Positions 655-62,574 of a stretch of 64,000 nucleotides of DNA are shown piece by piece. Positions within the stretch are counted from its first letter, which is position 1. Each line of letters begins with the position of its first letter. The stretch is from an uncultured Gammaproteobacteria bacterium (GTDB lineage: Bacteria; Patescibacteriota; Patescibacteriia; Patescibacteriales; GWC2-42-12), in NCBI GenBank assembly GCA_964526325.1, contig CAZGKM010000002.1:14725-78724 (forward strand), read 5' to 3'. Below the pieces are notes generated by a model, which did no database searches, was not told where the DNA came from, and worked only from the letters and a program-made list of their open reading frames with translations. A program made the position numbers and the translations under genes.

Positions 655-765
655 TATCTAATTTTTAATTTCTAATTTCTAAACAATTTCTCAATTTTTC
701 AATTTCTAAATTTGAAAATTAATTCATTGAAAATTGTTTGAAAATTGTAAATTGAAAATTGAAAA
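655..765. repeat. atp-operon intergenic repeat block (caatttc / gaaaattg units in inverted arrangement)
   Basis: Seen directly between atpA and atpH. Similar gaaaattg(ataatt) tandem units recur at 2134-2169 (atpE-atpB) and 1714-1790 (atpF-atpE). Confidence 0.6.
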
Positions 766-1167: not shown

Positions 1168-1193
1168 ATTATTAACTTATTATTCCCGCGCAG

Positions 1194-1207
1194 GCCTGCC
1201 GGCAGGC
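1194..1207. repeat. GC-rich perfect palindrome GCCTGCCGGCAGGC (family; other copies at 1798-1817, 62535-62549, and a degenerate copy at 5059-5083 inside tsaC)
   Basis: Seen directly. These are GC islands in an otherwise AT-rich sequence. Confidence 0.7.
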
Positions 1208-1224
1208 GGTGATCCAAAAATTAT

Positions 1225-1713: not shown

Positions 1714-1919
1714 AATATTTATAATTTAAAGTTGAAATATCAAAATGCAAAATGATAATGTAAAATTTGAAATTTTTAATTACTTAATTTTTACATTCCT
1801 GCCTGCCGGCAGGCAGGTTAAATTGCCATTTTGATTTTTGCACTTTAAACTTTATATTAATAATTTTACCCTTGCCCCAAAGATTTAACCCCGGGGCAAT
1901 GCGTAATACTATTAATTTT

Positions 1920-3779: not shown

Positions 3780-4619
3780 CTAAATACTAAAAAATTGTCT
3801 AGCATTATTTGTGCTAATTTCAGCTATTCTTTCAAAACTTAAATTCTTTATTTCTGCGATTCTTTCCGCTACTTTTTTAACTAACAACGGCTCATTGCGC
3901 TGCCCGCGGAATGGCTCCGGGGTCATAAAAGGACAATCGGTTTCAATCATGAATTTATCGTTAGGTATGCGGCGGATTAAATCATCCCATTTGGCGGAAA
4001 AAGTTATCAGCCCGGTAAAAGAAATATTCAAGCCTAAGCTAAAATACTGCCAGGCCAATTCTTCATCGCCGGAAAAACAATGCATTACGCCCCAGGCTTT
4101 ATCTTTAGACAGACCGGCTTTATAATCTTTCTTAAAATTTTTTAAAATTTCCAGCATATCGTCATGCGCCTGACGGCAATGAATAATAACCGGCAACTTT
4201 AAATTAACGGCTAGCCTAAGCTGTTCTTTAAAAATTTCTTTCTGTTTTTGCTTAACCGCGGCCTCGTTAGCCGTAATATCAATATTGTAATAATCCAAGC
4301 CAATTTCGCCTACCGCCACCACCTTTTTAAATTGAGCCATTTTTTCAAACACGTCATAACTAAAATCTTCTTCCCGAGTTACAAAGTTATAATCATCCCC
4401 CGAAGCTTTTTGGGCATGAGTATGCATAGGGTGCAAGCCGACTGCGGCATAAACGCCTTTCTCATATTTATTGGCGTAATCTAAGGCGCGCTTAGAAGTT
4501 TTTGTTTCCGCGCCGACTAAAATCATCCAAGTTTCACCGGCCAAAGAACGGCGTATAACCTCATCGGCATCGTCTTTAAAGGCGTTAAAATTTATATGCG
4601 CATGGGTATCGATAAGCAT
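3780..4619 (-). CDS. tatD: TatD-family metal-dependent DNase/hydrolase
   Basis: The MLIDTHAHINF N-terminus (I chose this internal Met as the start) and GLHP…H and …ETD motifs match the TatD family. Confidence 0.8.
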   Translation of the reverse strand: MLIDTHAHINFNAFKDDADEVIRRSLAGETWMILVGAETKTSKRALDYANKYEKGVYAAVGLHPMHTHAQKASGDDYNFVTREEDFSYDVFEKMAQFKKVVAVGEIGLDYYNIDITANEAAVKQKQKEIFKEQLRLAVNLKLPVIIHCRQAHDDMLEILKNFKKDYKAGLSKDKAWGVMHCFSGDEELAWQYFSLGLNISFTGLITFSAKWDDLIRRIPNDKFMIETDCPFMTPEPFRGQRNEPLLVKKVAERIAEIKNLSFERIAEISTNNARQFFSI

Positions 4620-4620
4620 A

Positions 4621-4737
4621 AATGCTAAATGACAAATGGCAAATGACCAATCAAATCTAAAATCCAAATGTCAAAAAAGTATTAGTAATTTGTCATTTGA
4701 TATTGATTTGACATTTGTCATTGGAAATTTGTCATTT
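4621..4737. repeat. palindromic AATGACAAAT/ATTTGTCATT intergenic element, copy A
   Basis: The left arm (aatgacaaatggcaaatgacc) and right arm (gatttgacatttgtcattggaaatttgtcatt) are inverted. The right 32-mer is identical to copy B. Confidence 0.7.
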
Positions 4738-4745: not shown

Positions 4746-5357
4746 TTATTTTCTTAAAACCTTAATATTATTAATATCTCTTAAATCCACCAATCTCGAC
4801 GGCTTTGATCTTTTGCATTCGCCCGCATCAATTATTAAATCCGGCAGATATTTAAAATTCTTTTCGAGATTTTGCACATCGCTTAAAGTCTTTTCTCCTT
4901 TTTTATTAAGACTGGTAGAGACAATCGGTAAACCGACTCCATTAATAATTCTAATTAAAAAATCATTATCCGGCAATCTAATGCCTATACTGTTTAAACC
5001 GCCGGTCAATTCAGTCGGTAAATTTGGCCTTCTTTTTAAAATTACGGTAATCGGACCTGGCCCGCCTGCCGGTGAGGCAGGCCAAATTTTTTCCAAATAA
5101 TCCATTTGCTCTAAATTCAAAAAACAATATTTTTTTAACATCTCAAAGTCGCTAATTAAAATGAGCAACGGCTTGGCTCTTTTTTCGCCCTTGATTTTAT
5201 TTATTCTTTTTATGGCTTCGGCGTTTAATGCGTCGCAGCCCAATCCATAAACCGTATCGGTCGGATATGCCAACACTTGCCCGCGTTTTAAATAATCAAT
5301 TATTAAATTGATTTGCCCTTGGGTTATTTTATTTAAATTTACTTTTAAAATTTGCAT
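4746..5357 (-). CDS. tsaC: L-threonylcarbamoyladenylate synthase (YrdC/Sua5 family)
   Basis: YrdC signature …LAYPTDTVYGLGCDA…. The gene contains a GC-rich palindrome-derived in-frame segment (see findings). Confidence 0.8.
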   Translation of the reverse strand: MQILKVNLNKITQGQINLIIDYLKRGQVLAYPTDTVYGLGCDALNAEAIKRINKIKGEKRAKPLLILISDFEMLKKYCFLNLEQMDYLEKIWPASPAGGPGPITVILKRRPNLPTELTGGLNSIGIRLPDNDFLIRIINGVGLPIVSTSLNKKGEKTLSDVQNLEKNFKYLPDLIIDAGECKRSKPSRLVDLRDINNIKVLRK

Positions 5358-5365: not shown

Positions 5366-5406
5366 TTTGTCATTCCGGCCTCCGAGCCGGAATCCATTTC
5401 CTTATA
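5366..5406. promoter_or_regulatory. conserved leader hairpin element, copy D (TTTGTCATT-CCGGC…GCCGG-AATCCATTTCCTTAT) 8 nt upstream of tsaC start
   Basis: Seen in the sequence. It is related to the element at 9526-9566 by compensatory stem changes. Confidence 0.55.
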
Positions 5407-5409: not shown

Positions 5410-6084
5410 TTATAATAATTTTTTTACAATTAATTCAACGGCTTTAGCGTTTTTCTCAGCCCCGATTTTATAATCAAAATGTCCCGTAGCGCCATTCCCG
5501 TAATTATCAACCGAACTTATTGCAGCTATTGCCATGTCTGATTCAGCAGCCAAAATAACTTCCGAGGCCAAGGTCATGCCGACGACATCGGCGAATTGAG
5601 AAAACATTTTTATCTCGGCCGCGGTTTCAAATCTGGGCCCGGTCGTCTGAAGATATATCCCCTTTTTATAAATAGACAAATTTATCTGGCAGCAAATTTT
5701 TATCAGCAACTCTCTTAATTCTTGAGAAAATACCGGTGTGGTATGAACGATTTTATCGTTGAAAAAAGTCAGATTGCCGTTTAAGCTGATAAAATCATGC
5801 GGTATTAAAAAGCTTGGCACTTTTACGCTCTTTTTCAAGCTGCCTACCGAATTAAAAGAAATAATCTTTTTAACGCCGTAATCGGCTAAAGCTTGAAAAT
5901 ATGCTTTAAAATTAACCCGGTGCGGCGGTAAATTCCCCTGATGACGCTCTATGAAAAAAATATGGCCACAGCGGAAAATAACCGCTTGCCCGTATTTATT
6001 TTTTACTTTTATCGACTTAAAATTATTAAATAAGCCCGATAACTTTAAGCCGTTTCCGCCAATTAGACAAATTTTTTGTTTCAT
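5410..6084 (-). CDS. purine nucleoside / 5'-methylthioadenosine phosphorylase (PNP_UDP_1 family)
   Basis: 224 aa beginning …ICLIGGNG…. An R/H-rich phosphate-binding region and …GMTLASEV… resemble the MTAP/PNP family. Confidence 0.65.
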   Translation of the reverse strand: MKQKICLIGGNGLKLSGLFNNFKSIKVKNKYGQAVIFRCGHIFFIERHQGNLPPHRVNFKAYFQALADYGVKKIISFNSVGSLKKSVKVPSFLIPHDFISLNGNLTFFNDKIVHTTPVFSQELRELLIKICCQINLSIYKKGIYLQTTGPRFETAAEIKMFSQFADVVGMTLASEVILAAESDMAIAAISSVDNYGNGATGHFDYKIGAEKNAKAVELIVKKLL

Positions 6085-6128
6085 AAACAGTTATTTTATC
6101 ATCTTAAATAAAGAAGGTCGGGAGGTTA

Positions 6129-7670
6129 TTATTTTACTTTTTCTCTCTTTAATATTTTCACTGTTCCAATGTCCGCGTCAACTTCCACTAAATCACCGTC
6201 TTTCAATATTTGAGTAGCAAATTTAGTTCCAACAATACACGGTTTTTTCATTTCTCTTGAAACAATAGCTGCATGGCACAAAATACCACCTTCGTCAGTA
6301 ATAAATGCTGATGCTTTACGCATCGCCGGAACATAATCTGGGTTTGTCATCGGACAAACTAATATATCACCTTTTTTAATTTTATTTATATCTAAAAAAA
6401 ATGGTACTACACGAACAATTCCCCTAACTATCCCTAAATATGTTGGCTGACCTTTAATAATATTCGTTTCTTTTATTTTTATATCGGCAAGTAGCTGCAA
6501 ATGGTTGGAATTATAATTAATAAGCTCTATTGTGTGGTCATTTATTCTAATTAAAGAATAATCATTAATTCTTCTTTTAATAACCTTTTTGTCAATTTCC
6601 TTACCTTTAATTAACAGATTAATTTCATCTGCCGATAAATATAAAACTTCAAAAAATGATAAATTATGCTTTACTCCAATTAATTCAAAAAAGGAACGAA
6701 AATTATTACCACAAATTCCAACCGCATCCCAATTGTACATTTTAGCATTTATCATTTCTCTAATTATTTTTACTTCTTCTTTAAGATTCACGCTATGTTT
6801 TTCGGCGTCTTCAATAATATTTTTTATTACAAACTCCTTTTTTCCATTTTCCTCTTTTTGTTTTATTATTCCTTTATCATCGCACAATAATAACGTAATT
6901 AGCTTAAAATAATGATTTAGAGAATAAAAAGGCATATGCCAACACAAAGAGCCCATCCAACCGTAATAATCACGATGCTTTAATATATCATTATAGATTC
7001 CTCGATATTTTGTTTTGATAATATCATGCGGTTGCGATTTTTTAAAAAATTTAATCGCTTTTTTGTCTTTTTTAATTTTATTAACAATTCTATTAAATTC
7101 CAATAGCTCTTTGGCTAAAAATGATTTACTTTTTGGCGCTGTCAAATTTGTTAATATTTCCGTAGGATTGATTTGTTCCTTTTTATTCTTTACATACTCT
7201 TTAATTTTACTTTCCAACATTTTAGCTAGCAAAGAGTCAATCATAATGATGCTATAAGCTAACGCCATGTTGCGTTTTTGATATTGAATAAATTTATTAA
7301 AAATTATGATCTGCTTATTTCTATCATTAATTACTGATTTTTTTACTAATTCAGAAAAGGTTATTGCCTCTTTGCCGGTTTTCATTAATAACTTAATGTA
7401 TTTTGTTAAATAATTAAAACTTTCTTTTTTTATCTTCGACTTAAAATAATTATTAAAATCGTCATAATCTTTTTTCGTAAAATAAATAGTGCCGGATACC
7501 GTTAACATTTTTTTAAACCAAACAGGAAAACCTGTTTCTTTAAATGATTCTTTTTTTGTTGATTCCAATATTAACCAATTCATCAAAAAAGGCGTATTCC
7601 ATTTTCCAGCTTTTATCCAACTCGTCTCTTTAATTTTCTTAATGATTAATTTTTTATCAACTTTTATCAT
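6129..7670 (-). CDS. paralog 1: unknown N-terminal domain fused to C-terminal PEP-utilising-enzyme phosphohistidine swivel (mobile) domain
   Basis: The C-terminus GDILVCPMTNPDYVPAMRKASAFITDEGGILCHAAIVSREMKKPCIVGTKFATQILKDGDLVEVDADIGTV is a canonical PEP-utilisers swivel domain with a catalytic His in the GG(x)(T/C)SHAAI core. The roughly 400-aa N-terminal domain shares a YGWM motif with paralog 3. Confidence 0.6.
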   Translation of the reverse strand: MIKVDKKLIIKKIKETSWIKAGKWNTPFLMNWLILESTKKESFKETGFPVWFKKMLTVSGTIYFTKKDYDDFNNYFKSKIKKESFNYLTKYIKLLMKTGKEAITFSELVKKSVINDRNKQIIIFNKFIQYQKRNMALAYSIIMIDSLLAKMLESKIKEYVKNKKEQINPTEILTNLTAPKSKSFLAKELLEFNRIVNKIKKDKKAIKFFKKSQPHDIIKTKYRGIYNDILKHRDYYGWMGSLCWHMPFYSLNHYFKLITLLLCDDKGIIKQKEENGKKEFVIKNIIEDAEKHSVNLKEEVKIIREMINAKMYNWDAVGICGNNFRSFFELIGVKHNLSFFEVLYLSADEINLLIKGKEIDKKVIKRRINDYSLIRINDHTIELINYNSNHLQLLADIKIKETNIIKGQPTYLGIVRGIVRVVPFFLDINKIKKGDILVCPMTNPDYVPAMRKASAFITDEGGILCHAAIVSREMKKPCIVGTKFATQILKDGDLVEVDADIGTVKILKREKVK

Positions 7671-7674
7671 ACGA

Positions 7675-8562
7675 TTATTCTCGATGTAAAGATAAATAAA
7701 ATCTTTTTAATTCATCTATTTTATTTTGATCTAAATACATCTCACCATTCTGTTGTCTATTTGGATTATCAAATGTTACTACCAAGGGCAGCTTTTTTCC
7801 ATTTTGATCAGTTCTAATTCTAATATTAAACGTTTCGGAAGGATTAAACTCACCGCCTATTTCTTTAAAATCTTTAAAGCCGACTACTTGTTCATTATTA
7901 TTTTTTCTTACTAAGGCATACCGAAGTATAAATTCCATCATACCACCATGCGTTCCTGCCGGAATTAAAACTTTTGAATTTGATTTTAATCTTGCCGCCA
8001 TTTGTTGATAATGATCAATCAGATAGGCAAAAGAACCGGCCATTTCTCTTTTGTAATTTTCAGCTTCTGGCGTATCAAGCAAAACCATATATTCCAATAT
8101 TTTAGCTTGCGCTACTTTAGAAGCTTGCGCTTTTTCCTCGGGTGATAAATCTTTAAAATTTTCTGGTAAAAATGAATTATATACGGCTACATGATCATAT
8201 GGTTTTGGCGAAACAATATTCTCATAATTTAAAATTTTATTTGCTCGAGTATTAAATTTCTTATCGCCAGCAATTTCTTTCGCGTAAATATCTGCGGTTT
8301 CTAACGCTCTGCCCATATTCTTTTCTACTACAGGATTAGGATCTGCTTGAGAACCGATTGCTTTAACAGCGTCATATTCCTCGTTATTAATTCTACTTTT
8401 ATTAGCAGCTTTTTTGGTTTGTTCTCTGCCTAAATCGTTTAAAAATTTTCCATCTTTTTCTCCATGCCGAATTAATTTTAAATCAATAATAACGTCTGCG
8501 CCCTCTGGTTTTTTTATCATTTCGATTGAATTTTGATCCAATGATTCTTGATAATTTTTCAT
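7675..8562 (-). CDS. histidine phosphatase superfamily protein (PGAM-like, RHG motif)
   Basis: An LIRHGEKDG catalytic motif near the N-terminus and a downstream …AGTHGG… second His motif. Confidence 0.55.
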   Translation of the reverse strand: MKNYQESLDQNSIEMIKKPEGADVIIDLKLIRHGEKDGKFLNDLGREQTKKAANKSRINNEEYDAVKAIGSQADPNPVVEKNMGRALETADIYAKEIAGDKKFNTRANKILNYENIVSPKPYDHVAVYNSFLPENFKDLSPEEKAQASKVAQAKILEYMVLLDTPEAENYKREMAGSFAYLIDHYQQMAARLKSNSKVLIPAGTHGGMMEFILRYALVRKNNNEQVVGFKDFKEIGGEFNPSETFNIRIRTDQNGKKLPLVVTFDNPNRQQNGEMYLDQNKIDELKRFYLSLHRE

Positions 8563-8578
8563 GTGTTTATTTTAATAA

Positions 8579-9517
8579 TTACAATGTTGTTATCGGTCTG
8601 GATTGAGTAATATAAAATTTGCCTTTAGCCAACGCCCATTCTATATCCTGGGGCTTTTTATAATGCTTCTCTATATTAGTACAAATTTTGGCTAATTCAA
8701 TAATCTGTCTATCGTTTAGCTTTTGCTTTTTTTGTTTAGCTTTTGGCGCGAACGTATGCTTAACTCCACCACTGGTTTTTCTGATTATCATCATTTTCTG
8801 CGTAGCAATATTTATATCCATTATTGAAAAATTTTGCTTGTCAATAACATAAGCGTCCGGCGTTATTTGACCCGATACTATAGCTTCGCCTAATCCCCAG
8901 CCGGCTTCAATTATCATTTGATTTTTGTCTTGAGTAACCGGATGCACGGTAAAAGCAATACCGGAAACTTCCGACTCTACCATGTATTGCACAACTACGG
9001 CCACGCTTACCTTGGTTTTTAGCAATTTTCTTTCATAGCGATAAAAAATCGCTCGCGGCGTAAAAAGCGATGACCAGCATTTTTTAACGTTTTCTAATAA
9101 ATCTTTTTTGGTTGTATCTAAATAAGTTTCTAATTCTCCGGCCCAAGAAGCTACTGACGAATCTTCGGCTGTGGCGGACGAACGCACGGCCACGAATTTA
9201 GCTTTTAGCTTTTTAAATTCCGATAAAATTTCTTTTTTGATGTCGGCCGGTATAGCGCGATCATGAATTAAATCGCGGATAACATTAGACGCTTTATCTA
9301 CCGAATTAATGTCTTTATAATTTACTTTTTTTAATATGGCTGCGATATCAACATCTAAATCGGTTTCTTCTAAAAAACGATCAAAGGCCGAGACTAAAAC
9401 TACGAAGCCTGGCGGTACCGGCAACTTAGCACCGCTCATCTCGCCTAAACTCGCGCCCTTACCCCCGGCTAAACCTATGTCTTTATATGAAAGTTGTTTA
9501 AAATTTTTAGTATGCAT
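8579..9517 (-). CDS. standalone PPDK_N / PEP-synthase-type ATP-grasp nucleotide-binding domain protein
   Basis: 312 aa. GLAGGKGASLGEM…LPVPPGFVV…AVRSSATAEDS…QDIEWALAKGKFYITQSRPIT matches the ATP/pyruvate-phosphate-dikinase N-terminal domain. No swivel or PEP-binding domain is fused to it. Confidence 0.75.
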   Translation of the reverse strand: MHTKNFKQLSYKDIGLAGGKGASLGEMSGAKLPVPPGFVVLVSAFDRFLEETDLDVDIAAILKKVNYKDINSVDKASNVIRDLIHDRAIPADIKKEILSEFKKLKAKFVAVRSSATAEDSSVASWAGELETYLDTTKKDLLENVKKCWSSLFTPRAIFYRYERKLLKTKVSVAVVVQYMVESEVSGIAFTVHPVTQDKNQMIIEAGWGLGEAIVSGQITPDAYVIDKQNFSIMDINIATQKMMIIRKTSGGVKHTFAPKAKQKKQKLNDRQIIELAKICTNIEKHYKKPQDIEWALAKGKFYITQSRPITTL

Positions 9518-9525
9518 ATAATTCT

Positions 9526-9566
9526 TTTGTCATTGCGGACAATAACCCGCAATCCATTTCCTTATT
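9526..9566. promoter_or_regulatory. conserved leader hairpin element, copy E (TTTGTCATT-GCGG…CCGC-AATCCATTTCCTTATT) 8 nt upstream of the PPDK_N-domain gene start
   Basis: The flanks match copy D. The stem is GCGG/CCGC where D has CCGGC/GCCGG, so the changes are compensatory. Confidence 0.55.
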
Positions 9567-9574
9567 AATTAATT

Positions 9575-10627
9575 TTATTTTATTATTTTAACAATTCCTT
9601 TATTCGCGTCAACTTCCACTAAGTCACCATCGTGCAAAATTTTAGTGGCAATTTTAGTACCGATGATGCAGGGAATTTCCATTTCTCTTGATACGATTGC
9701 CGCATGACAAAGAATTCCACCCTCGTCGGTAATAATTCCTGATACTTTTGAGAGGATGGCTACCATATCAGGATGCGTCATATAAGTAACTAAAATGTCG
9801 CCTTTATTAATTTTCGAATAATCTGACTTATTTAATACCAGTTTAGCTATTCCTTGAGCGTTCCCTTTGTAGGCAACTAAACCACGAACTTCTTTTTTAT
9901 CGGCGGTAATATTTTCTTTTTCAAACTCAATCTTATCTAACACCATCTTTGCTCTACTGCCGAATAGCAATTCCGACTTATAATTTTCTAATTTCATTAC
10001 TGTAAGATTTTCTCTTTGGTCCAATAAACTATCATTAATTTCTTTGTCGCCGGATAATAGTTCGGAAAACTCTTTATTTATATATAGATACAACTTGTTT
10101 AAAGATATATTTTTTGTGTTAGATACCATCTCAAAAAAACCTAATAATTCTTTCCACGCCGAACTACTTTTTACTTCCGCGTCATCGTAAATCCGTTGCA
10201 GTATTTCAATTTCCTTTTCATTCCCTTGAGATTGTTTCAAAAAAGTCGCTAAATTTGAAGAATAAAGAATTATCCCGCGCGACAGTTTATAGCATGCTTC
10301 AAATTCTTTCCATGCGTAAAGATTATTCTCTCCGGCTAATCTTGTACTTGCTTTGTCAAGGTTATTAAAAAATTGCTTCATCTGGCTTATTATTTTTTCA
10401 ATTCCTATTCTATTTATATCATTTTTTATACTTTCGACTTTGGACGTAAAATCATCTGGTTTAATATATTGAGTAGTCATGCCATGACTATAAATCGCTA
10501 ATAAATCTTTTTGTTTAACGGTAAAAGGACGGGGTAACATATTTTTATATCCCTCAAAACGAAGAGTCCGCTCTAAAAGAGTGGATTCTCTTGTTACAAG
10601 CTTCTCCCATTGATTACCGTTTGACAT
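9575..10627 (-). CDS. paralog 2: unknown N-terminal domain plus C-terminal phosphohistidine swivel domain
   Basis: C-terminus GDILVTYMTHPDMVAILSKVSGIITDEGGILCHAAIVSREMEIPCIIGTKIATKILHDGDLVEVDANKGIV. Confidence 0.6.
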   Translation of the reverse strand: MSNGNQWEKLVTRESTLLERTLRFEGYKNMLPRPFTVKQKDLLAIYSHGMTTQYIKPDDFTSKVESIKNDINRIGIEKIISQMKQFFNNLDKASTRLAGENNLYAWKEFEACYKLSRGIILYSSNLATFLKQSQGNEKEIEILQRIYDDAEVKSSSAWKELLGFFEMVSNTKNISLNKLYLYINKEFSELLSGDKEINDSLLDQRENLTVMKLENYKSELLFGSRAKMVLDKIEFEKENITADKKEVRGLVAYKGNAQGIAKLVLNKSDYSKINKGDILVTYMTHPDMVAILSKVSGIITDEGGILCHAAIVSREMEIPCIIGTKIATKILHDGDLVEVDANKGIVKIIK

Positions 10628-10629
10628 AT

Positions 10630-11478
10630 CTATCGTAGATTATTATTAAAATTTTTTTTTGGAATGTTGAATAATTCGGTATCAATTTCACCTTCTTCGT
10701 TGAATTTCAGACGCAATCCTTCTGCGTTGCCAGCCATTTGTATTCCTTTTGGATCCATATTCAATTCGCTCGACATAGCCACCGTTACTCTGGGCGCATG
10801 ACTATTGGCAATCACTACCATGGACTCATCTCCTCTGTCGTTAATTCTTTTTGCCAGTTTTTGCAGACCGGCCTTCGTCTCTTCCATATATCGTCTAGCC
10901 TGAGAATATGTTTCTATTCCCTTGGGGATTTCTTCGTCAGGTGTCAGCATCCAAGCGATTACACCGTCGGCGGCTCCGAGACTTTTTTGATATTCAGGAT
11001 CATCTAATTTTTTTCGAAAATCTGGTGTGGAATCAGTCACTGTACCGATACGGCTTTTTACCCCCGGACCGGCCTTGCGATTTCTTTGTTCGATATCAGC
11101 TGAATTATAGGCAGGGTGAAGAATATATATATTCTGATCGGGGACACCATGCTGGATCAACGCTTCTTTTTCAATTTGCGCCTGTTCCATCGTTCGAGGA
11201 GTCTCGGAGTCATATATACGGAACTTTACGGTCTTGAGTATTTCTTCATTTTGTTGTTTGTTACTACCTACTGGCACAAATTCTTGCACTTGAGTAATTA
11301 TTTTTTCTATAGCTTTCTCTACTTGCCTTTTACCCTTCTCTGTCAATTCCCTACTGACATCACTTTTATTGCTCGTTGTTTCTCCATGTCGTATCAAATA
11401 AACAACTAACGTTAGCGAAATCCGCTCTTTTTTCTTTTCCAGGCCTAATGATTCAATCGCATATTTTTCCCCCGCCAT
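10630..11478 (-). CDS. histidine phosphatase superfamily protein (PGAM-like)
   Basis: VVYLIRHGETTSN catalytic motif plus a downstream …IANSHAPR… second His motif. Confidence 0.55.
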   Translation of the reverse strand: MAGEKYAIESLGLEKKKERISLTLVVYLIRHGETTSNKSDVSRELTEKGKRQVEKAIEKIITQVQEFVPVGSNKQQNEEILKTVKFRIYDSETPRTMEQAQIEKEALIQHGVPDQNIYILHPAYNSADIEQRNRKAGPGVKSRIGTVTDSTPDFRKKLDDPEYQKSLGAADGVIAWMLTPDEEIPKGIETYSQARRYMEETKAGLQKLAKRINDRGDESMVVIANSHAPRVTVAMSSELNMDPKGIQMAGNAEGLRLKFNEEGEIDTELFNIPKKNFNNNLR

Positions 11479-11487
11479 AGTTTTTAT

Positions 11488-12990
11488 TTAAATTATTTTA
11501 TTAATAATGCCTCTGCTCATATCCATTTCGATGTGGTCACCGTCTTTAAAAACAGATGTTGCGATTTTCGTCCCGACGATACATGGTTTTAAAAATTCAC
11601 GAGAAAGTAACGCGGCATGGCTCGTTATCCCGCCTTCATCCGTTACCACGCCACGCGCTTTTTTAATCAAAAAAACAGCGTCGGGCGTAGTCATAGTCGT
11701 TATGATAATATCTTCTTTTTTTACATCTCTCTTCTTGTTTTTAATTAAAATTATTTTTGCACGACCTCTTATAATTTTTTCGTCATTTGGGCGGCTGGCT
11801 ACGGTACCTGCCACAAAATTTAAATTCTTGGTATTTTTATGCGTAAAAATTCCAAATTTTTGGAATCTTTTGTGCGCATCATTTCCGCTCATAAATATTG
11901 GCTTTTTGCCAAAAATTCCCTCATAAAGTAAATATGAGCGACTTCTAATCTTATATAATTTAGCTATCTTTTGCGGGGTGTCAATAAATGATTCAATTTC
12001 CCCTATATCAAAATACTTCAGCGCCATATATTCTACTGATATTTTTTTGGCAAAAGCTTCAAGAAACTGTCTAAAAACCCAATGCAACTTAGAGGTAACA
12101 TATTTGCGGTCATCCTGAAGAATATACATACCTTGAAATGCCTCTACTTGCCTTATGACATCATCCGTCAAGCTATGCCGTTTTATCAAATACTTAATCT
12201 TTTTATTTTTTTCGTCTTCATATTTCTGAAGAGTATAAATTACTTTTTCAATTTCTTTTTTTGTTTTACTCCCCACATTTTCTTCAATTATTTTTCTATA
12301 ATGCCGGGCATCCCAATATTCGTTTGCGTCATAAGAAACCGGCATCCAGCCGTATATTTTCGATAACATTTGCGAAATATTTTCAATATCAAATTTATTT
12401 TTTTTATTAAGTTTCTTCAATGTGGCTATACATATATCCAACTCTTCTTTTAACGCCCAGGATTTTTTTATCGGCCCGATTAAATCATTGATAACTTTTT
12501 GATCGGTTATATATTTTTTAAGCGTTGTTTCCAGGTCATTTTTTATATATTCGGATCCGACAAAATATATAGGCGGACTAACAACATTGTAATCGATCCA
12601 CCTTGACTTGATTCGCTTATAAAGTTTTATAAAGCCTGCTGTATTTTTTGGTAACGTTTTATTTTCAAGCTCATTTATTAACTCAAGAAGTTCGATTTCG
12701 GCTTTTTTATGTTTTTGTTGGAGCTGCTTAAAAAATTGCTTTTTTTTCTTTATTTTTTTAACGATAAAATTCCCGAATCTATCCCAGTCAGCTTGATTAT
12801 ATACGGCAAAAACATCTCCGGAAGGTGTAAAAAAATTAACATAGAATTGAATACCTACTCCATAGGTATCAGCAACTCGCTTGTCAGTAATTGCGCTCAC
12901 ATTCCAGGAAGCCGGGATGGGAAGATATTTTCTCGATCTCTTTAAATGGTAATGATTAGGCAAATTTTGTTTTTTTTCATTTATTAGCAT
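11488..12990 (-). CDS. paralog 3: large N-terminal domain plus C-terminal phosphohistidine swivel domain
   Basis: C-terminus IIITTMTTPDAVFLIKKARGVVTDEGGITSHAALLSREFLKPCIVGTKIATSVFKDGDHIEMD. The N-terminal domain shares a YGWM-containing region with paralog 1. Confidence 0.6.
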   Translation of the reverse strand: MLINEKKQNLPNHYHLKRSRKYLPIPASWNVSAITDKRVADTYGVGIQFYVNFFTPSGDVFAVYNQADWDRFGNFIVKKIKKKKQFFKQLQQKHKKAEIELLELINELENKTLPKNTAGFIKLYKRIKSRWIDYNVVSPPIYFVGSEYIKNDLETTLKKYITDQKVINDLIGPIKKSWALKEELDICIATLKKLNKKNKFDIENISQMLSKIYGWMPVSYDANEYWDARHYRKIIEENVGSKTKKEIEKVIYTLQKYEDEKNKKIKYLIKRHSLTDDVIRQVEAFQGMYILQDDRKYVTSKLHWVFRQFLEAFAKKISVEYMALKYFDIGEIESFIDTPQKIAKLYKIRSRSYLLYEGIFGKKPIFMSGNDAHKRFQKFGIFTHKNTKNLNFVAGTVASRPNDEKIIRGRAKIILIKNKKRDVKKEDIIITTMTTPDAVFLIKKARGVVTDEGGITSHAALLSREFLKPCIVGTKIATSVFKDGDHIEMDMSRGIINKII

Positions 12991-13083
12991 GTTTTTAGTT
13001 ATATCGTTTAGCCAAATTTTAAGCGTTTTTTATACTTTTTACCACCTCTTTATACGCATCCATATTATTAGGCTATGTAACTT

Positions 13084-13872
13084 TTATTGTGCTTCCTCTG
13101 TTTTTAATCTAGCCTTTATCATTACATAAACGGGAGTTTCTTCATATTCTTCCCAAAAATCTTGACCTAATTCTTTTTTGCCTTCTCCAGAAATTTCGCT
13201 ATTAATCCACTCTATTTCAAAACCCGCTTCCTTAAAAATTTTTTCGTAAGTTTCTTTGGTCCAGTAATAATTAGTGAATTCTCCCAGCTTTTTATTTTTA
13301 AAATCTTTAAGCTCAATTTTTACTTCACTGCCTTCCTCGCCTGTTGTTGGCGTCATTTTTACGCCATAAGAATCCGAGCCTTTCATTCTTTCCGGGTTGG
13401 CGATGGAAGCATAAAAAAATCCGCCGCTTTCTAAATTATTTTTAACGCCAGAGATTATTTTCCTCATCATTTCTTCGGAATCGGAATAATGAAGCGCCAT
13501 AGCTCCGGTAATAACATCAAACTTTCCTTTTATTGGTAGATTAGCTATATCACCAATGGCATATTCTATCGACCTATCTGAATTTATTCTTTTTTCTTCC
13601 ACCGCCGCTTTACTTATTAACTTCTCTGAAATATCAACGCCAACTACTTCTTCCGCACCCAAATCTCTTAACAATCTGCTGGAAACTCCCTCGCCGCAAG
13701 CCAAATCCAAGGCTCTTTTTCCTTTTAAATCGCCTAGCAATTTAACCCAAGTATAATCAGAGGTATATTTTCTTAATTCCCTTTTAGTCGCCTGCTCGTA
13801 CCCATCGACTATTTTACTGTATTCTTGTTTGACTTTTTCAGTCGACGGCTTAATTATTTCTATATTTTCCAT
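13084..13872 (-). CDS. class I SAM-dependent methyltransferase
   Basis: Motif I ALDLACGEGVSS and …VVGVDIS…, with a typical Methyltransf_11/25 layout. Confidence 0.7.
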   Translation of the reverse strand: MENIEIIKPSTEKVKQEYSKIVDGYEQATKRELRKYTSDYTWVKLLGDLKGKRALDLACGEGVSSRLLRDLGAEEVVGVDISEKLISKAAVEEKRINSDRSIEYAIGDIANLPIKGKFDVITGAMALHYSDSEEMMRKIISGVKNNLESGGFFYASIANPERMKGSDSYGVKMTPTTGEEGSEVKIELKDFKNKKLGEFTNYYWTKETYEKIFKEAGFEIEWINSEISGEGKKELGQDFWEEYEETPVYVMIKARLKTEEAQ

Positions 13873-13883
13873 AAATTATTAAT

Positions 13884-14963
13884 TTACTTGATTATTTTTA
13901 CCACTCCTTTATCCGCATCCACTTCCACTAAATCACCATTATGCAAAACTTTAGTAGCGATTTTTGTGCCAATAACGCATGGCTTCTTTAATTCCCGTGC
14001 AACTATGGCTGCATGAGAAAGCAACCCTCCGCCGTCAGTTACAATGGCCGCTGCTTTTTTCATTAATAATAAATAATTAGGATTAGTCATACCGGTTACC
14101 AGTATTTCTCCGCTCTTAATGGTTGCACCATAATAATCTAAAATTACTTTGCATCTTCCTTTAACTTTCCCCTTAAACGCCGACGCTCCTTTTAATATCT
14201 TTTTTTCAGAATCGTTAAGCCAAATTTTTTCAATTCTATCCGTATCTATGGCCGATAAAAAATAAATTTTCTTCTTAGTAAAATAGACCGAACTTCTTTT
14301 ATGTCTTAAAAATAATTGCCTTTCATCCGGTATCTTTACATTTTCAATAAAATTCAATAATTCATCCTGAGTCATCATTAAAATATTTTCTTTAGCATAT
14401 CCAGTCTGCTCAGAAATTAATTTAGCAACCTTGGCAAATATTATCGCGTTATTCTGATAAAATGACTCGGAATATTTTCGTGCATTTGCCAATATTTTTT
14501 TAGTTTTTTTATCCAATTCATCGTACATAACATCAAACACGACTTTAGTTGCAACATTATATGCTCCAAATATTTCATATAAAGGATTAAACAATTTTAA
14601 TTTTTTTATAAAATTATTTGGGGATTGACTAATTACTGACATTATCTCGCCAGCAACTTGTTTAAAATCTTTAGCCATCTCACCCGCATAATTATTTTTT
14701 TTTAATTTTTCACCCACATGTTTACCTAAGGCTTGATATTCATTTTCTGGCAATCTGATCGTAGCAATACCTTTTTTATAATCAATAAAAAAACTAGAAA
14801 AAGACAAACCGAATATTCTTTCTAAACCATTAAAATAAACCCTATAGGAATTATAAACTTCAAGCAAAGGAAATGATCCGCTCCAATCAACGTGCCAATC
14901 AATGTCATGTATTTTTTTTATTAACTTATTATTTTTTAATTTTGATTTTCTTCCTATTATCAT
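13884..14963 (-). CDS. paralog 4: unknown N-terminal domain plus C-terminal phosphohistidine swivel domain
   Basis: C-terminus GEILVTGMTNPNYLLLMKKAAAIVTDGGGLLSHAAIVARELKKPCVIGTKIATKVLHNGDLVEVDADKGVVKIIK. Confidence 0.6.
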   Translation of the reverse strand: MIIGRKSKLKNNKLIKKIHDIDWHVDWSGSFPLLEVYNSYRVYFNGLERIFGLSFSSFFIDYKKGIATIRLPENEYQALGKHVGEKLKKNNYAGEMAKDFKQVAGEIMSVISQSPNNFIKKLKLFNPLYEIFGAYNVATKVVFDVMYDELDKKTKKILANARKYSESFYQNNAIIFAKVAKLISEQTGYAKENILMMTQDELLNFIENVKIPDERQLFLRHKRSSVYFTKKKIYFLSAIDTDRIEKIWLNDSEKKILKGASAFKGKVKGRCKVILDYYGATIKSGEILVTGMTNPNYLLLMKKAAAIVTDGGGLLSHAAIVARELKKPCVIGTKIATKVLHNGDLVEVDADKGVVKIIK

Positions 14964-15997: not shown

Positions 15998-16134
15998 TTT
16001 ATCTTAAATTTTATCATTATAAAAATAAAGTTTCTTTATATTTTCCCTAAAAAATTTGCCCAATTATTTTTCGCTTTTTGGCCGATAATTTAATTGATTT
16101 CATTCTTTCTTTAAGCTATCTTTTATTTAATTTT

Positions 16135-18079: not shown

Positions 18080-18122
18080 ATAGACACTAACTTAACGAAT
18101 AAATACTAAATAAACGAATGTA

Positions 18123-18524
18123 TTATTTAATTTTTCTTTCGTTAGTTAAAATTATTCTTTTTATATATAATTTTAGGCTTCTAAAATTTACAAAAATACC
18201 CAACTCAAAATCGCTAACTTTTAAATAACTATAAATCTGATCAATAAAATTTTTTGGAATAATATCTACCGCCTTAATTTCTAAAATAATTTTATTTTCA
18301 ATCACAAAATCTGGCCTATATACTCCTAATTTTCTACCAGTTAATTTTGATATTATATTAAAACTAGCTTCTCTTTTATATTTAATATTACTCGCTACCA
18401 AAAACTCTTCAATTATATTGCAATAAACTTTTTCTTTATGCCCTGGACCATAAATTTTTCTAGTTTTTATTAAAATTCCTTGAACTTTATAACTTAAATC
18501 TTTGAATAATATTTTATCCTCCAT
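18123..18524 (-). CDS. GxxExxY-family protein (PD-(D/E)xK fold)
   Basis: …YRPDFVIENKIILEIKAV…QIYSYLKVSDFELGIFVNF matches the GxxExxY family pattern. Confidence 0.6.
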   Translation of the reverse strand: MEDKILFKDLSYKVQGILIKTRKIYGPGHKEKVYCNIIEEFLVASNIKYKREASFNIISKLTGRKLGVYRPDFVIENKIILEIKAVDIIPKNFIDQIYSYLKVSDFELGIFVNFRSLKLYIKRIILTNERKIK

Positions 18525-18568
18525 AAATTATTTTCGTTTAATTCGTTTTATATTCGTTTCTTTTGTGT

Positions 18569-19297
18569 CTACTTCCCCACAATTACCACAAACTCCCCCT
18601 TCTGATCGTTAGTATTGGCTTTTATTTTCTCAATAATTTTATTAATCTCTCCGCGATAAACCGTTTCATGCATTTTTGAAAGCTCGCGGCAAACTACGAC
18701 TGATGTTAAATTTATCGGCTTATTTTCCACTTCACCTTTTTTATTCATTTCCGTATTTTCTTCAGCCGCTTTTTTTAATTCTTCAAGAAAATGCACAATC
18801 CGATGTTTTGATTCATAAACTACTACTGGGTAATCGCTTTTTAAAATACGCCTGGTAAAAGTCTGGCGGCCTTTTTTATGGGGAGGAAAACCCATAAAAA
18901 TAAACTTATCGGTCGGCATGCCGGAAATTGAAAGCGATGCAGTTACGGCCGACGGTCCGGGAACCGATTCTATCTCTACGGAGTTATCCAAACTTTCTAA
19001 AACAGCTTGTATTAATCTTCCTCCGGGATCGGAAATTCCTGGCGTGCCGGCGTCCGAAACCAGTGCCAAATTCTTGCCGCCGGATAATAAACCGATTACT
19101 TCCTCCACCTTATTTTCGTTAGAATGCTGATGATAAGAAATAGTCGGCGTATTAATCTTATAATGCGAGAGTAATTTCCTGGTCACGCGCGTATCTTCGC
19201 ATAAAATAAAATCAACTTCGCCTAAAATGCGAAGCGCTCTTAAACTTATATCTTCTAAATTGCCGATTGGCGTGCCAACAATATATAAAGTAGACAT
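18569..19297 (-). CDS. rsmI: 16S rRNA (cytidine1402-2'-O)-methyltransferase
   Basis: LYIVGTPIGNLEDISLRAL…ILCEDTR…LVSDAGTPGISDPG is the tetrapyrrole-methylase-like RsmI signature. I chose the internal Met (MSTLYIVG) as the start. Confidence 0.8.
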   Translation of the reverse strand: MSTLYIVGTPIGNLEDISLRALRILGEVDFILCEDTRVTRKLLSHYKINTPTISYHQHSNENKVEEVIGLLSGGKNLALVSDAGTPGISDPGGRLIQAVLESLDNSVEIESVPGPSAVTASLSISGMPTDKFIFMGFPPHKKGRQTFTRRILKSDYPVVVYESKHRIVHFLEELKKAAEENTEMNKKGEVENKPINLTSVVVCRELSKMHETVYRGEINKIIEKIKANTNDQKGEFVVIVGK

Positions 19298-19299: not shown

Positions 19300-19405
19300 A
19301 AAATGACAAATGACTAATTTCCAATGTCAAATAAAATTCAAAACGTAAATATTAAAATAAAATTATATTTACATTTGCCATTTGACATGGGAAATTTGTC
19401 ATTAT
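19300..19405. repeat. palindromic AATGACAAAT/ATTTGTCATT intergenic element, copy C
   Basis: aaaatgacaaatgactaatttccaatgtcaaat … atttgccatttgacatgggaaatttgtcatt. Confidence 0.6.
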
Positions 19406-39938: not shown

Positions 39939-40090
39939 AACTTATTATGCCATTGCGAGCGACTGGAAGGAACGAAGCAATCTCACATACTCGGAGCTTA
40001 ACCAGAGATTGCCGCGTCGCCCCGTAAATGCAGGGCTCCTCACAATGACAACTAATAATCTTTATACTTTATACTTTATACTTTTTTTAT

Positions 40091-44222: not shown

Positions 44223-44231
44223 TCAACTGAA

Positions 44232-44340
44232 AATGACTAATGTCAAATGACAAATCAAATCCTAATATCAAAAAATTAATTAATTTTTTATTTAGTCATT
44301 TGACATTGATTTGACATTTGTCATTGGAAATTTGTCATTA
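44232..44340. repeat. palindromic AATGACAAAT/ATTTGTCATT intergenic element, copy B
   Basis: aatgactaatgtcaaatgacaaatcaaat … tagtcatttgacattgatttgacatttgtcattggaaatttgtcatt. The 32-mer is identical to copy A. Confidence 0.7.
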
Positions 44341-62563: not shown

Positions 62564-62574
62564 AAATAAAAAAT

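What the first reader, a model, noticed from the sequence alone, without database searches (positions are those of the whole stretch)
4621..4737. Family of palindromic intergenic elements built from AATGACAAAT / ATTTGTCATT units (copies at 4621-4737, 19300-19405, 44232-44340)
Three elements of about 110 bp share inverted arms rich in aatgacaaat on the left and atttgtcatt on the right. A 32-mer, gatttgacatttgtcattggaaatttgtcatt, is identical in copies A and B, which lie 39 kb apart. Each element ends within about 7-15 nt of a start codon (tatD, rsmI, der). The 9-mer TTTGTCATT or its complement occurs at least nine times in intergenic DNA here. That is far more than expected for a 64-kb AT-rich sequence. 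This suggests a MITE-like mobile repeat, or a repeated regulatory site or operator for a global regulator, placed at gene starts.
Basis: seen in the sequence. Interest (0 to 1): 0.55.

Follow-up and report, generated by a model that had tools for sequence, protein, structure and literature searches.

The report
Gene-less remnants of rRNA-IVS-type hairpin cassettes
The three ~110-base palindromes are real and are insertions: gene-less copies of a hairpin-flanked cassette that normally carries a small "23S rRNA intervening-sequence" (four-helix-bundle) gene and is scattered through many uncultured bacteria, so they are not control sites for tatD, rsmI or der.

Summary
Three imperfect palindromes (4627-4737, 19301-19404, 44231-44340) fill the spacers before tatD, rsmI and der. 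TTTGTCATT occurs 13 times against 1.2 expected. The arms are built from 7-base units (AATGNCA / TGNCATT).

They belong to a family found in about 50 metagenome-assembled genomes, mostly Patescibacteria: 42 full-length copies and about 60 half copies in the fetched DNA.

In four loci, from four genomes, the same two arms flank a ~130-aa four-helix-bundle gene (TIGR02436 / PF05635, 23S_rRNA_IVP), whose first ~19 codons (MTNDKFPMTNQxQNPN.K) are the arm itself. Two further loci keep only the two ends of that gene. The window copies keep the cassette's 5'-arm/3'-arm asymmetry (88-92% identity).

In relatives with 79-89% identical flanking proteins, the same spacers are empty (4-26 nt) or hold other palindromes. 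The elements are therefore insertions, not conserved operators.

No target-site duplication, transposase, compensatory base changes, or convincing promoter or terminator was found.

The closest described relative is the Coxiella 23S rRNA intervening sequence, which has the same gene family, tandem ATGACAG heptamers and RNase III cleavage.

How the elements move is unknown, and RNase III processing here is inferred. I rate this a new variant of a known kind, of moderate interest.

The parts
4627..4737 (.). Element A. It is a gene-less palindromic cassette remnant between the stop of the Sua5/YrdC-like gene (4746-5357, -) and the start of tatD (3780-4619, -). The 5'-type arm is 4627-4676, the loop about 4677-4688, and the 3'-type arm 4689-4737.
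   Evidence: Sequence. nhmmer score 102 bits. Fold -32.5 / -33.2 kcal/mol. Arms match cassette arms 37/42 and 44/49. In relative L135 the same spot, between AATTAA and AGCATTT-ATG, holds a different short hairpin.
4620..4626 (-). Native spacer (AGCATTT on the - strand) directly upstream of the tatD start codon.
   Evidence: The same AGCATTT-ATG is present in L135, which lacks element A.
19301..19404 (.). Element B, the most diverged copy. It lies between the stop of a 550-aa ORF (19408-21060, -) and the start of rsmI (18569-19297, -).
   Evidence: Sequence. nhmmer 73.9 bits. Fold -28.1 / -34.0 kcal/mol. Arms match cassette arms 37/42 and 39/44. The orthologous spacer is only 4-10 nt in L135, L137, L139 and L141, and holds other palindromes in L140 and L142.
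44231..44340 (.). Element C, between the stop of the LytR/CpsA/Psr-family gene (42714-44222, +) and the start of der (44351-45805, +).
   Evidence: Sequence. nhmmer 94.5 bits. Fold -29.5 / -30.3 kcal/mol. Arms match cassette arms 34/42 and 45/49. The orthologous spacer is empty in L101, L102 and L120. L098 holds a related element with an identical 17-nt loop. Other palindromes occupy the spacer in L099 and L103-L109.
18093..18568 (-). A gene-carrying palindromic cassette of a sister kind, in the same window. It holds a GxxExxY / PD-(D/E)XK gene (18123-18524) flanked by inverted arms built from ACGAATA-type units. It is inserted between rsmI and the Cys-tRNA-synthetase-like gene.
   Evidence: TIGR04256 at 4.9e-25 and PF13366. 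The orthologous spacer is 1-39 nt without the cassette in L135, L137, L139 and L142, and the native AGTTAGTGTCTAT-ATG is retained.
1714..1870 (.). A gene-less palindrome of a second four-helix-bundle cassette subfamily, with CAAAATG-type units. It has a G+C hairpin (CCTGCCTGCCGGCAGGCAGG) in its centre.
   Evidence: Bases 1714-1773 match the 5' arm of the gene-carrying cassette in L013 at 51/60. Fold -37.8 kcal/mol.

Best explanation
The three elements are gene-less, decayed copies of a palindromic cassette. In its full form the cassette carries a ~130-aa four-helix-bundle gene. This is the 'S23p / 23S rRNA intervening-sequence protein' family (TIGR02436, PF05635).

**Structure (shown).**
- The full cassette runs AATGACAAATGACAAATTTCCAATGACAAATCAA... 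(5' arm, which also supplies the start codon and the first ~19 codons), then the gene body, then a 3' arm that is roughly the reverse complement of the 5' arm.
- Losing the gene body leaves a ~110-nt imperfect palindrome with 7-nt-periodic arms.
- The window copies share the cassette's arms, including the difference between its 5' and 3' arms.
- Deletion intermediates exist.

**Insertion (shown).** The copies sit in the short spacers between genes that run in the same direction. Close relatives have these spacers empty or filled with other palindromes.

**Decay (inferred from shown data).** After insertion the copies are inherited vertically and diverge at about the rate of neighbouring DNA. 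They show no compensatory changes.

**Effect on RNA (inferred).** Because they lie inside operons they are co-transcribed. They would fold into a ~45-bp A/U-rich hairpin, which RNase III would probably cut. RNase III does cut the Coxiella 23S rRNA intervening sequence, whose stem is also built from tandem ATGACAG heptamers. The likely effect on tatD, rsmI and der is incidental: cleavage or uncoupling of the transcript, not regulation.

**Unknown.** What moves the cassettes is not known. No transposase and no target duplication were found. The candidates are the four-helix-bundle protein itself, or a hairpin-specific enzyme acting in trans.
For: **The family is real and widespread.**
- A 22-specified-base arm pattern hits 96 stretches in about 50 genome assemblies.
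- nhmmer seeded with the window copies finds 42 full-length and about 60 half copies.
- The consensus is a defined, non-periodic order of units.

**The same arms flank a four-helix-bundle gene.**
- This is seen in L004, L024, L035 and L080. L094 holds the gene with one recognisable arm at a locus edge.
- L008 and L084 retain only the two ends of the gene.
- At least 7,900 database homologues exist. All 39 sequences I read begin with an arm-like peptide, and most start MTNDKFPMTNQxQNPN.K or, from the second Met, MTNQxQNPN.K. This is the translation of the arm consensus.
- The left arms of the window copies best match cassette 5' arms (34-37/42). Their right arms best match 3' arms (39/44, 44/49, 45/49).

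**Insertion polymorphism.**
- LytR-to-der spacer: empty in L101, L102 and L120.
- ORF550-to-rsmI spacer: empty in L135, L137, L139 and L141.
- Sua5-to-tatD spacer: a different hairpin at the same spot in L135.
- The window's GxxExxY cassette is likewise an insertion.

**Old insertion, gene-like decay rate.** Element C and the element in L098 share the site and a 17-nt loop. They are about 78% identical, against 81% for der DNA.

**Position.**
- 31 of 35 gene-less copies lie between co-directional genes, and none lies inside an ORF.
- All 5 gene-carrying cassettes are co-oriented with their neighbours.

**Published precedent.** The Coxiella intervening sequence has an S23p ORF, 2-3 tandem GACAGAT heptamers before the start codon, and an RNase III cut at the first repeat (PMC4990558).
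Against: - No target-site duplication: 24 of 44 junctions have none and the rest have 1-3 nt, as expected by chance in A/T-rich flanks.
- No transposase or other known mobility enzyme is present in the cassette.
- No four-helix-bundle gene of this subfamily lies in the 64-kb window, so a partner in this genome is unproven.
- There is no covariation between the arms: 87.8% of cells are paired, equal to the shuffle mean, and the variable TGACA/TGTCA centres are not matched. RNAalifold finds no consensus structure. Selection for the hairpin is therefore not shown.
- RNase III cleavage and transcription are not tested, and no RNase III signature motif was found in the window.
- Copies within a genome are barely more alike than copies between genomes (0.75 against 0.71), so there is no sign of a recent burst in this genome.
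- Non-Patescibacteria labels rest on MAG record titles, and I did not check the binning.
Confidence: 0.75

Rival explanations
1. The elements are repeated operators or binding arrays for a global regulator, placed at gene starts.
For: The motif is strongly enriched and intergenic. The elements end 4-11 nt from start codons. Regulatory roles have been speculated for heptamer repeats upstream of genes in Nostoc and Beggiatoaceae (10.1101/2022.06.06.494920; PMC4679880).
Against: - The orthologous spacers are empty in 3 (der) and 4 (rsmI) close relatives, or hold unrelated palindromes.
- The elements abut upstream stop codons just as closely.
- Cassette orientation is sense for der but antisense for tatD and rsmI.
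- Promoter-like matches are weak (9-10 of 12). They are near the shuffle expectation around der and rsmI and only modestly above it around tatD (7 found against 2.8 +/- 1.8).
- Half copies occur in frame inside recG-like ORFs.
Confidence: 0.05
2. The elements are a classical MITE: a deletion derivative of a DDE-type insertion sequence, moved in trans by its transposase.
For: Small size, long terminal inverted repeats, multiple copies and insertion polymorphism.
Against: No target-site duplication. The only longer relatives carry a four-helix-bundle gene, not a transposase. The pattern has no match in IMG/VR, and element C has no match in PLSDB plasmids.
Confidence: 0.07
3. The elements are hairpin-recognised single-strand DNA elements, like REP/REPIN (moved by RAYT) or the palindrome-associated derivatives of IS200/IS605. 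A Y1/HUH enzyme encoded elsewhere would move them, and the four-helix-bundle gene would be a passenger.
For: Lack of target duplication and a palindromic structure fit this chemistry. The sharply conserved termini AATGNCA...TGNCATT (position -1 is A in 44 of 44 copies) could be a cleavage motif. Several unrelated palindromes in these genomes also begin with TGTCATT or end with AATGACA.
Against: The arms are A/T-rich heptamer arrays, not 20-40-nt G+C-rich REPs with a GTAG head. I did not look for a RAYT or TnpA gene, and none was seen. The arm doubles as the coding start of the gene, which argues the gene is not a mere passenger.
Confidence: 0.12
4. The elements are local simple-sequence expansions, arising from heptamer slippage as in cyanobacterial STRR repeats. 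They would have become palindromic in place and would not be insertions.
For: - The arms have a 7-nt period.
- Heptamer number varies between Coxiella strains.
- Simple tandem AATGNCA arrays occur in viral contigs without any cassette.
- Heptanucleotide repeats are reported as the commonest long simple repeats in prokaryotes (PMC4679880).
Against: The units follow a fixed, non-periodic order (ATGACAA, ATGACAA, ATTTCCA, ATGACAA, ATCAA, ATCCAAA...) shared by 40 or more copies in many genomes. The boundaries are sharp. Clean empty sites exist in relatives. Slippage probably does modulate arm length, but it does not explain the origin.
Confidence: 0.04
5. The elements are host-selected RNA hairpins, such as a terminator, an mRNA stabiliser or a processing site. 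Any palindrome would serve, which would explain why different families occupy the same spacer.
For: Seven of the 13 relatives with a syntenic LytR-der spacer hold some palindrome there, and these belong to at least 4 unrelated types. The same is seen at the rsmI spacers. The folds are stable on both strands.
Against: Several relatives have empty spacers. There is no U-tract or terminator-like match. There are no compensatory changes. Recurrent hits are expected if only a few spacers of a ~1-Mb genome tolerate insertions.
Confidence: 0.1

Closest known systems
23S rRNA intervening sequences (IVS) carrying an S23p / four-helix-bundle ORF, for example the 428-444-nt IVS of Coxiella burnetii (Warrier et al. 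2016, PMC4990558)
   Same: [quoted passage not shown]
- The gene family inside is the same (PF05635 / TIGR02436).
- The 5' arm next to the ORF start is made of tandem heptamers (Coxiella GACAGAT = ATGACAG units; here ATGACAA).
- Heptamer number is variable.
- The ORF is decaying or deleted in some copies.
- Distribution is sporadic and looks horizontally acquired.
   Different: - The elements here are not in rRNA. They sit in spacers between protein genes.
- The window copies have lost the ORF completely.
- There are many copies per genome rather than one per rrn operon.
- The ORF start codon lies inside the first heptamer.
- RNase III cleavage is untested here.
MITEs and other small palindromic bacterial repeats (Correia/NEMIS, ERIC, RUP, Coxiella QMITE1/2)
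   Same: About 100-nt non-coding elements with terminal inverted repeats. They are dispersed in intergenic DNA, are insertion-polymorphic, derive from a longer element, and are co-transcribed with neighbouring genes.
   Different: There is no target-site duplication. The longer relative encodes no transposase. The arms are 7-nt-periodic.
REP / BIME / REPIN elements with RAYT transposases
   Same: Intergenic palindromes without target duplication, clustered at gene ends, with conserved terminal motifs.
   Different: These are not G+C-rich 20-40-mers, they have no GTAG head, and no RAYT link has been shown.
Heptanucleotide tandem repeats: cyanobacterial STRR (STRR2 = TTGGTCA, i.e. AATGACC units; recalled from Mazel et al. 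1990, not checked here), TAACTGA repeats of Beggiatoaceae (PMC4679880), and TTTTGAA repeats of Nostoc 7120 (10.1101/2022.06.06.494920)
   Same: Seven-base units, intergenic, often immediately upstream of start codons, scattered across phyla with suspected horizontal spread, and of unknown function.
   Different: Those are described as direct tandem arrays of one unit. Here different units follow a fixed order, form two inverted arms, and are tied to a gene cassette.
Rickettsia palindromic elements (RPE)
   Same: Palindromic repeats that can sit in frame inside protein genes. Half copies of this family do so in recG-like ORFs of L066 and L072.
   Different: There is no sequence relation. The full-length copies here are all intergenic.

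Membership tests
rRNA intervening sequence (IVS) | Inserted in a helix of a 16S or 23S rRNA gene | tested here: not met
   The window has no Rfam match at gathering thresholds. All three copies lie between protein genes. No arm-bearing locus has an ORF-free stretch next to an arm that could be rRNA.
rRNA intervening sequence (IVS) | Bordered by complementary sequences that form an extended stem-loop | tested here: met
   Arms of 49-52 nt, 71% complementary. Folds of -28 to -34 kcal/mol, z = -4 to -6.
rRNA intervening sequence (IVS) | Carries, or derives from an element that carries, an S23p / four-helix-bundle ORF (true of some IVSs only) | tested here: met
   The same arms flank PF05635/TIGR02436 genes in L004, L024, L035 and L080. 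Window arms are 88-92% identical to them, except the left arm of element C (34/42, 81%). The window copies themselves have no ORF.
rRNA intervening sequence (IVS) | Excised from the transcript by RNase III without religation | not testable with these tools
   This needs RNA end mapping or an in vitro RNase III assay.
MITE | Short, non-coding, with terminal inverted repeats, in multiple dispersed copies | tested here: met
   Three copies in 64 kb and 42 full-length copies in the fetched loci.
MITE | Flanked by a target-site duplication | tested here: not met
   24 of 44 junctions have no shared bases and the rest share 1-3 nt. The filled-versus-empty comparison at the rsmI site shows a clean insertion into GAAT|TTTT.
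MITE | Shares its termini with an autonomous element that encodes a transposase | tested here: not met
   The only longer elements with these termini encode a four-helix-bundle protein.
MITE | Presence/absence polymorphism at orthologous sites | tested here: met
REP / REPIN | G+C-rich imperfect palindrome of 20-40 nt with a conserved GTAG-type head, associated with a RAYT gene | tested here: not met
   The arms are A/T-rich heptamer arrays with termini AATGNCA...TGNCATT. I did not search for RAYT genes.
Integron attC / gene cassette | Imperfect palindrome with RYYYAAC ... GTTRRRY core sites on one side of a promoterless ORF | tested here: not met
   The termini are AATGNCA/TGNCATT, and the two arms lie on opposite sides of the ORF.
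Tandem heptamer repeats (STRR-type) | Head-to-tail arrays of a 7-nt unit in non-coding DNA | tested here: inconclusive
   The 7-nt period is clear (lag-7 identity 0.58-0.60). However, the units differ, follow a fixed order and form two inverted arms.

The most novel reading that the evidence does not exclude
The AATGNCA-heptamer arms are the recognition sites of the four-helix-bundle protein they flank. That protein belongs to the same Pfam family as the DGR accessory protein Avd. Together, arm and protein would form a previously unrecognised, transposase-less class of mobile palindromic cassette. It would insert without target duplication into operon spacers and rRNA helices, leave gene-less 'MITE-like' remnants, and spread across bacterial phyla and possibly into DPANN archaea. 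This would finally give a function to the 'S23p / IVS protein' family.
Probability: 0.15. Interest if true: 0.8.

Novelty: new variant of a known kind. Interest (0 to 1): 0.55.

Why it matters
Intervening sequences of rRNA and their S23p/four-helix-bundle genes have been described for decades. Neither their function nor their means of movement is known (PMC4990558).

This window and its relatives show the same kind of cassette outside rRNA, in three states: gene-carrying, internally deleted, and gene-less. Clean filled-versus-empty sites exist between close relatives. That provides the material for working out insertion rules and for testing whether the protein binds its own arms.

In practice:
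- These palindromes occupy roughly a quarter of the spacers in this window.
- The Logan contig carrying der (L001) begins inside element C, 37 nt upstream of the der start codon, which suggests the repeat may break short-read assemblies.
- They add spurious N-terminal extensions such as MTNDKFPM... to gene calls.
- They should not be mistaken for regulatory sites.

Tried and rejected
- **Rfam.** The gathering-threshold scan of the whole window found nothing, and there are no tRNAs.
- **Promoter and terminator scans** around all three elements gave only weak 9-10 of 12 promoter-like matches. These are near the shuffle expectation around der and rsmI and modestly above it around tatD (7 against 2.8 +/- 1.8). 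There is no terminator within the elements.
- **Structure.** RNAalifold on 28 full-length copies predicted no consensus structure. With a hand-made mirror structure, pairing (87.8%) equals the shuffle mean and there is no excess of compensatory changes.
- **Target-site duplication.** Searched for and not found.
- **Phages and plasmids as vectors.** The arm pattern and the coding-arm 26-mer have no hit in IMG/VR. Element C has no hit in PLSDB. Only simple tandem AATGNCA arrays occur in viral contigs, without the gene.
- **Arms inside rRNA genes.** No ORF-free stretch adjoins any arm in the fetched loci.
- **Four-helix-bundle gene in the window.** None found by tblastn.
- **RNase III signature motif in the window.** None found. 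This is uninformative for the whole genome.
- **Source genome.** It is not among the GTDB representatives scanned. The nearest is a Falkowbacteria MAG at about 72% DNA identity.
- **Literature.** Searches for palindromic or MITE-like repeats in Patescibacteria, and for S23p cassettes outside rRNA, found no description of this family.
- **Integron attC and REP** were considered and rejected on their core motifs.

Full report
**1. What is in the window**

The window is A/T-rich (37% G+C) and tightly packed with genes. At the three places named there are imperfect palindromes of 104-111 nt.

- Element A (4627-4737) lies between the stop of a Sua5/YrdC-like gene and the start of tatD.
- Element B (19301-19404) lies between a 550-aa ORF and rsmI.
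- Element C (44231-44340) lies between a LytR-family gene and der.

The gene identities come from Pfam.

TTTGTCATT or its complement occurs 13 times, against 1.17 expected. The 32-mer is identical between the first and third copies.

Each element folds into a long hairpin on either strand: -28 to -34 kcal/mol, z = -4 to -6.

The arms are built from 7-nt units (AATGNCA on the left, TGNCATT on the right), not 10-nt units. Self-identity at lag 7 is about 0.6.

The elements end 4-11 nt from the downstream start codons, but also 3-9 nt from the upstream stop codons. They simply fill the spacers. Bases 4621-4626 are native spacer.

**2. A widespread family**

A degenerate 23-mer shared by all three copies hits 96 stretches in about 50 genome assemblies.

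- Most are Patescibacteria of many lineages.
- Some records are titled Bdellovibrionales, Gammaproteobacteria, Saganbacteria/WOR-1, Margulisiibacteriota, Omnitrophota, Chlamydiae, Desulfobacterales or Negativicutes, and one is titled Nanoarchaeota.
- These labels are those of MAG records, and I did not verify the binning.

An HMM seeded with the three window copies finds 42 full-length copies and about 60 half copies in that DNA.

The 28-sequence alignment gives a consensus in which the units follow a fixed order:

ATGACAAATGACAAATTTCCAATGACAAATCAAATCCAAAATCCAAATGTCAAA - loop - ...TTGACATTGATTTGNCATTTGTCATTGGAAATTTGTCATT

This is therefore a defined element, not a generic simple repeat. The source genome is not among the GTDB representatives. 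Its nearest relative there is a Falkowbacteria MAG at about 72% DNA identity.

**3. The arms belong to a gene cassette**

In L004, L024, L035 and L080 the same two arms stand 435-490 nt apart and enclose one ORF. L094 holds the gene with one recognisable arm at a locus edge.

The ORF is a four-helix-bundle protein: TIGR02436 at 1e-20 to 2e-22, and PF05635 '23S rRNA-intervening sequence protein'. The only solved structure found at the E-value cut-off used is PDB 2RLD.

L008 and L084 carry the two arms with only the first ~17 codons and the last few codons of that ORF between them. They are internal-deletion intermediates.

A database search with the L035 protein returns at least 7,900 relatives. 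All 39 sequences I read begin with an arm-like peptide. Most start MTNDKFPMTNQxQNPN.K or, from the second Met, MTNQxQNPN.K, followed by ...YDL. This is the literal translation of the left-arm consensus. The 5' arm therefore doubles as the start of the gene.

The 5' and 3' arms of the cassette differ slightly in unit order. The window copies keep this asymmetry:

- Their left arms best match cassette 5' arms (34-37 of 42).
- Their right arms best match 3' arms (39/44, 44/49, 45/49).

By this criterion the 'sense' strand of all three window copies is the + strand. That is the same direction as der, but opposite to tatD and rsmI.

Other four-helix-bundle subfamilies have their own heptamer-type arms (L015, L008, L013). 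The window holds a gene-less copy of one of these at 1714-1870, matching at 51/60.

The window also holds a gene-carrying cassette of a sister kind at 18093-18568. It is a GxxExxY / PD-(D/E)XK gene between inverted ACGAATA-type arms.

**4. They are insertions**

Relatives with 79-85% identical Der protein were fetched and their LytR-to-der spacers read.

| Loci | LytR-to-der spacer |
|---|---|
| L101, L102, L120 | Only 9-26 nt, no element |
| L098 (closest relative) | A family member at the same spot |
| L099, L103, L105 | TGTCATTGCGAGG...CGCAATGACA palindrome |
| L104, L106, L107 | GAAAATT-type heptamer palindromes |
| L108, L109 | Yet another palindrome |

The L098 element shares an identical 17-nt loop with element C and is about 78% identical overall, against 81% for der DNA. 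This fits an old, vertically inherited insertion.

Relatives with 76-89% identical RsmI show the same pattern.

- **ORF550-to-rsmI spacer.** It is 4-10 nt in L135, L137, L139 and L141. It holds unrelated palindromes in L140 and L142.
- **rsmI-to-cysS spacer.** It is 1-39 nt in four relatives and holds TGTCATTGCGAG-type palindromes in two. The window has the GxxExxY cassette there.
- **Sua5-to-tatD spacer.** In L135 a short G+C hairpin ending in ATGACAAA sits exactly where element A sits, between AATTAA and AGCATTT-ATG.

The filled-versus-empty junction at rsmI reads TAA-GAAT[element]TTTT-ATG, against TAA-CTTAATTT-ATG in L135. This is a clean insertion with no duplication.

Over 44 copies there is no target duplication beyond chance. 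The base outside the left ATG is always A, so the termini are AATGNCA...TGNCATT.

**5. What the elements do not show**

- Promoter-like matches are weak, and there is no terminator-like signal within the elements.
- There is no Rfam family.
- There is no consensus structure by RNAalifold.
- With a hand-drawn mirror structure, 87.8% of cells pair, exactly the shuffle mean. At the variable centre of the unit (TGACA versus TGTCA) the two arms vary independently. Pairing therefore comes from the conserved sequence of each arm, and selection on the hairpin itself is not demonstrated.
- Copies within one genome are hardly more alike (0.75) than copies from different genomes (0.71). Element A is closer to a copy in a Parcubacteria MAG (86%) than to elements C (81%) or B (69%). 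This pattern is expected if the gene-less copies decay independently from a conserved master cassette.
- Full-length copies lie between co-directional genes in 31 of 35 cases, and never inside an ORF.
- All five gene-carrying cassettes are co-oriented with their neighbours.
- The arm pattern has no match in IMG/VR, and element C has no match in PLSDB plasmids.

**6. Comparison with what is known**

The closest described object is the intervening sequence of 23S rRNA. The Coxiella element (PMC4990558) has these features:

- It is 428-444 nt and bordered by complementary sequences that form a stem.
- It contains an S23p (four-helix-bundle) ORF.
- It has two or three tandem GACAGAT heptamers just upstream of the ORF start. 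In another register these are ATGACAG units, one base different from ATGACAA.
- RNase III cuts it at the first repeat.
- The ORF is decaying, and one strain has a 176-bp deletion.

A CPR study also found 23S_rRNA_IVP ORFs in rRNA insertions (10.1101/2024.02.27.582315).

The elements here share the architecture and the gene family, but they are not in rRNA. They therefore fail the defining feature of an IVS. They work like MITEs but fail the target-duplication and transposase criteria.

Heptamer repeats near start codons are known from cyanobacteria and Beggiatoaceae, with no established function. The STRR2 unit TTGGTCA (recalled from memory, not checked here) is AATGACC in another register, and that unit is used in these arms.

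**7. Most likely mechanism, and confidence**

*Shown:*
- Homology to the cassette.
- The direction of derivation, from the deletion intermediates.
- Insertion polymorphism.
- Absence of target duplication.
- Absence of conservation with the downstream genes.

*Inferred:*
- Co-transcription, from the position between co-directional genes.
- Hairpin formation in RNA and RNase III cleavage, by analogy with rRNA IVSs.
- Only an incidental effect on tatD, rsmI and der.

*Unknown:*
- The mobility machinery. The four-helix-bundle protein, which shares its Pfam family with the DGR accessory protein Avd, is the obvious candidate because its gene starts inside the arm. There is no direct evidence for this.

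My confidence is about 0.75 that the elements are gene-less remnants of this cassette and not regulatory sites. It is about 0.4 for the RNase III step.

**8. Verdict**

The 'mobile repeat' reading is supported in substance, and the 'operator' reading is rejected. This is a new variant of a known kind (IVS-type four-helix-bundle cassettes), of moderate interest.

Noticed in passing
window 18093-18568: A GxxExxY / PD-(D/E)XK gene (18123-18524, - strand) lies between inverted arms built from ACGAATA-type units. It is inserted between rsmI and the Cys-tRNA-synthetase-like gene. Relatives L135, L137, L139 and L142 lack it, with spacers of 1-39 nt.
   Followed up: yes
window 1714-1870: A second gene-less palindrome, with CAAAATG-type units and a central CCTGCCTGCCGGCAGGCAGG hairpin (fold -37.8 kcal/mol). 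Bases 1714-1773 match the 5' arm of another four-helix-bundle cassette in L013 at 51/60.
   Followed up: partly
window 655-765 and 2130-2240; L104, L106, L107: Palindromes built from GAAAATT / AATTTCT heptamers lie in the ATP-synthase operon spacers. The same type occupies the LytR-to-der spacer in three relatives. They resemble the TTTTGAA repeats reported upstream of Nostoc genes.
   Followed up: partly
window 24141-24306: A 166-nt long-stemmed palindrome (AGGGACTATCACCGAATGC ... GCATTCGGCGATAGTCCCT; fold -67.6 kcal/mol) lies in the spacer before the 1781-aa ORF. Its family was not identified.
   Followed up: no
window 1177-1215, 5366-5400, 9526-9560, 39939-40090, 62518-62570: Short G+C hairpins begin with TTTGTCATT (for example TTTGTCATTCCGGC...GCCGGAATCC), and there is one GCCATTGCGAGCG...CGAAGCAATC-type element. 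Longer TGTCATTGCGAGG...CGCAATGACA palindromes occupy the orthologous der and rsmI spacers in relatives. The shared TGTCATT/AATGACA end across unrelated families is unexplained.
   Followed up: partly
L066 4660-4794 and L072 7238-7366: A single arm (MSNDKFPMSNQCQNPNDKK) is read in frame inside a recG-like helicase ORF, just before the DIIIGTHALIQ motif, in two different genomes. This is reminiscent of Rickettsia palindromic elements.
   Followed up: no
L143-L165 (IMG/VR contigs): Simple tandem arrays of AATGACA, AATGTCA or AATGGCA (4-9 units) occur in 23 stretches of viral contigs. These include giant-virus MAGs and phage contigs of 60-68% G+C. Some lie directly upstream of a Shine-Dalgarno sequence plus ATG (L150). 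There is no four-helix-bundle gene nearby.
   Followed up: partly
window 5410-16134: A block of about 10.7 kb separates the CvpA-like gene from Sua5-tatD in the window. The block holds roughly nine genes, including paralogous PEP-utilising / PPDK-like genes (repeat family D1). In relatives L135, L140 and L142, CvpA is directly followed by Sua5. Both edges of the block carry a TTTGTCATT motif (5366 and 15990).
   Followed up: no
L001: The Logan contig carrying der (L001) begins inside element C, 37 nt upstream of the der start codon. This suggests the repeat may break short-read assemblies.
   Followed up: no
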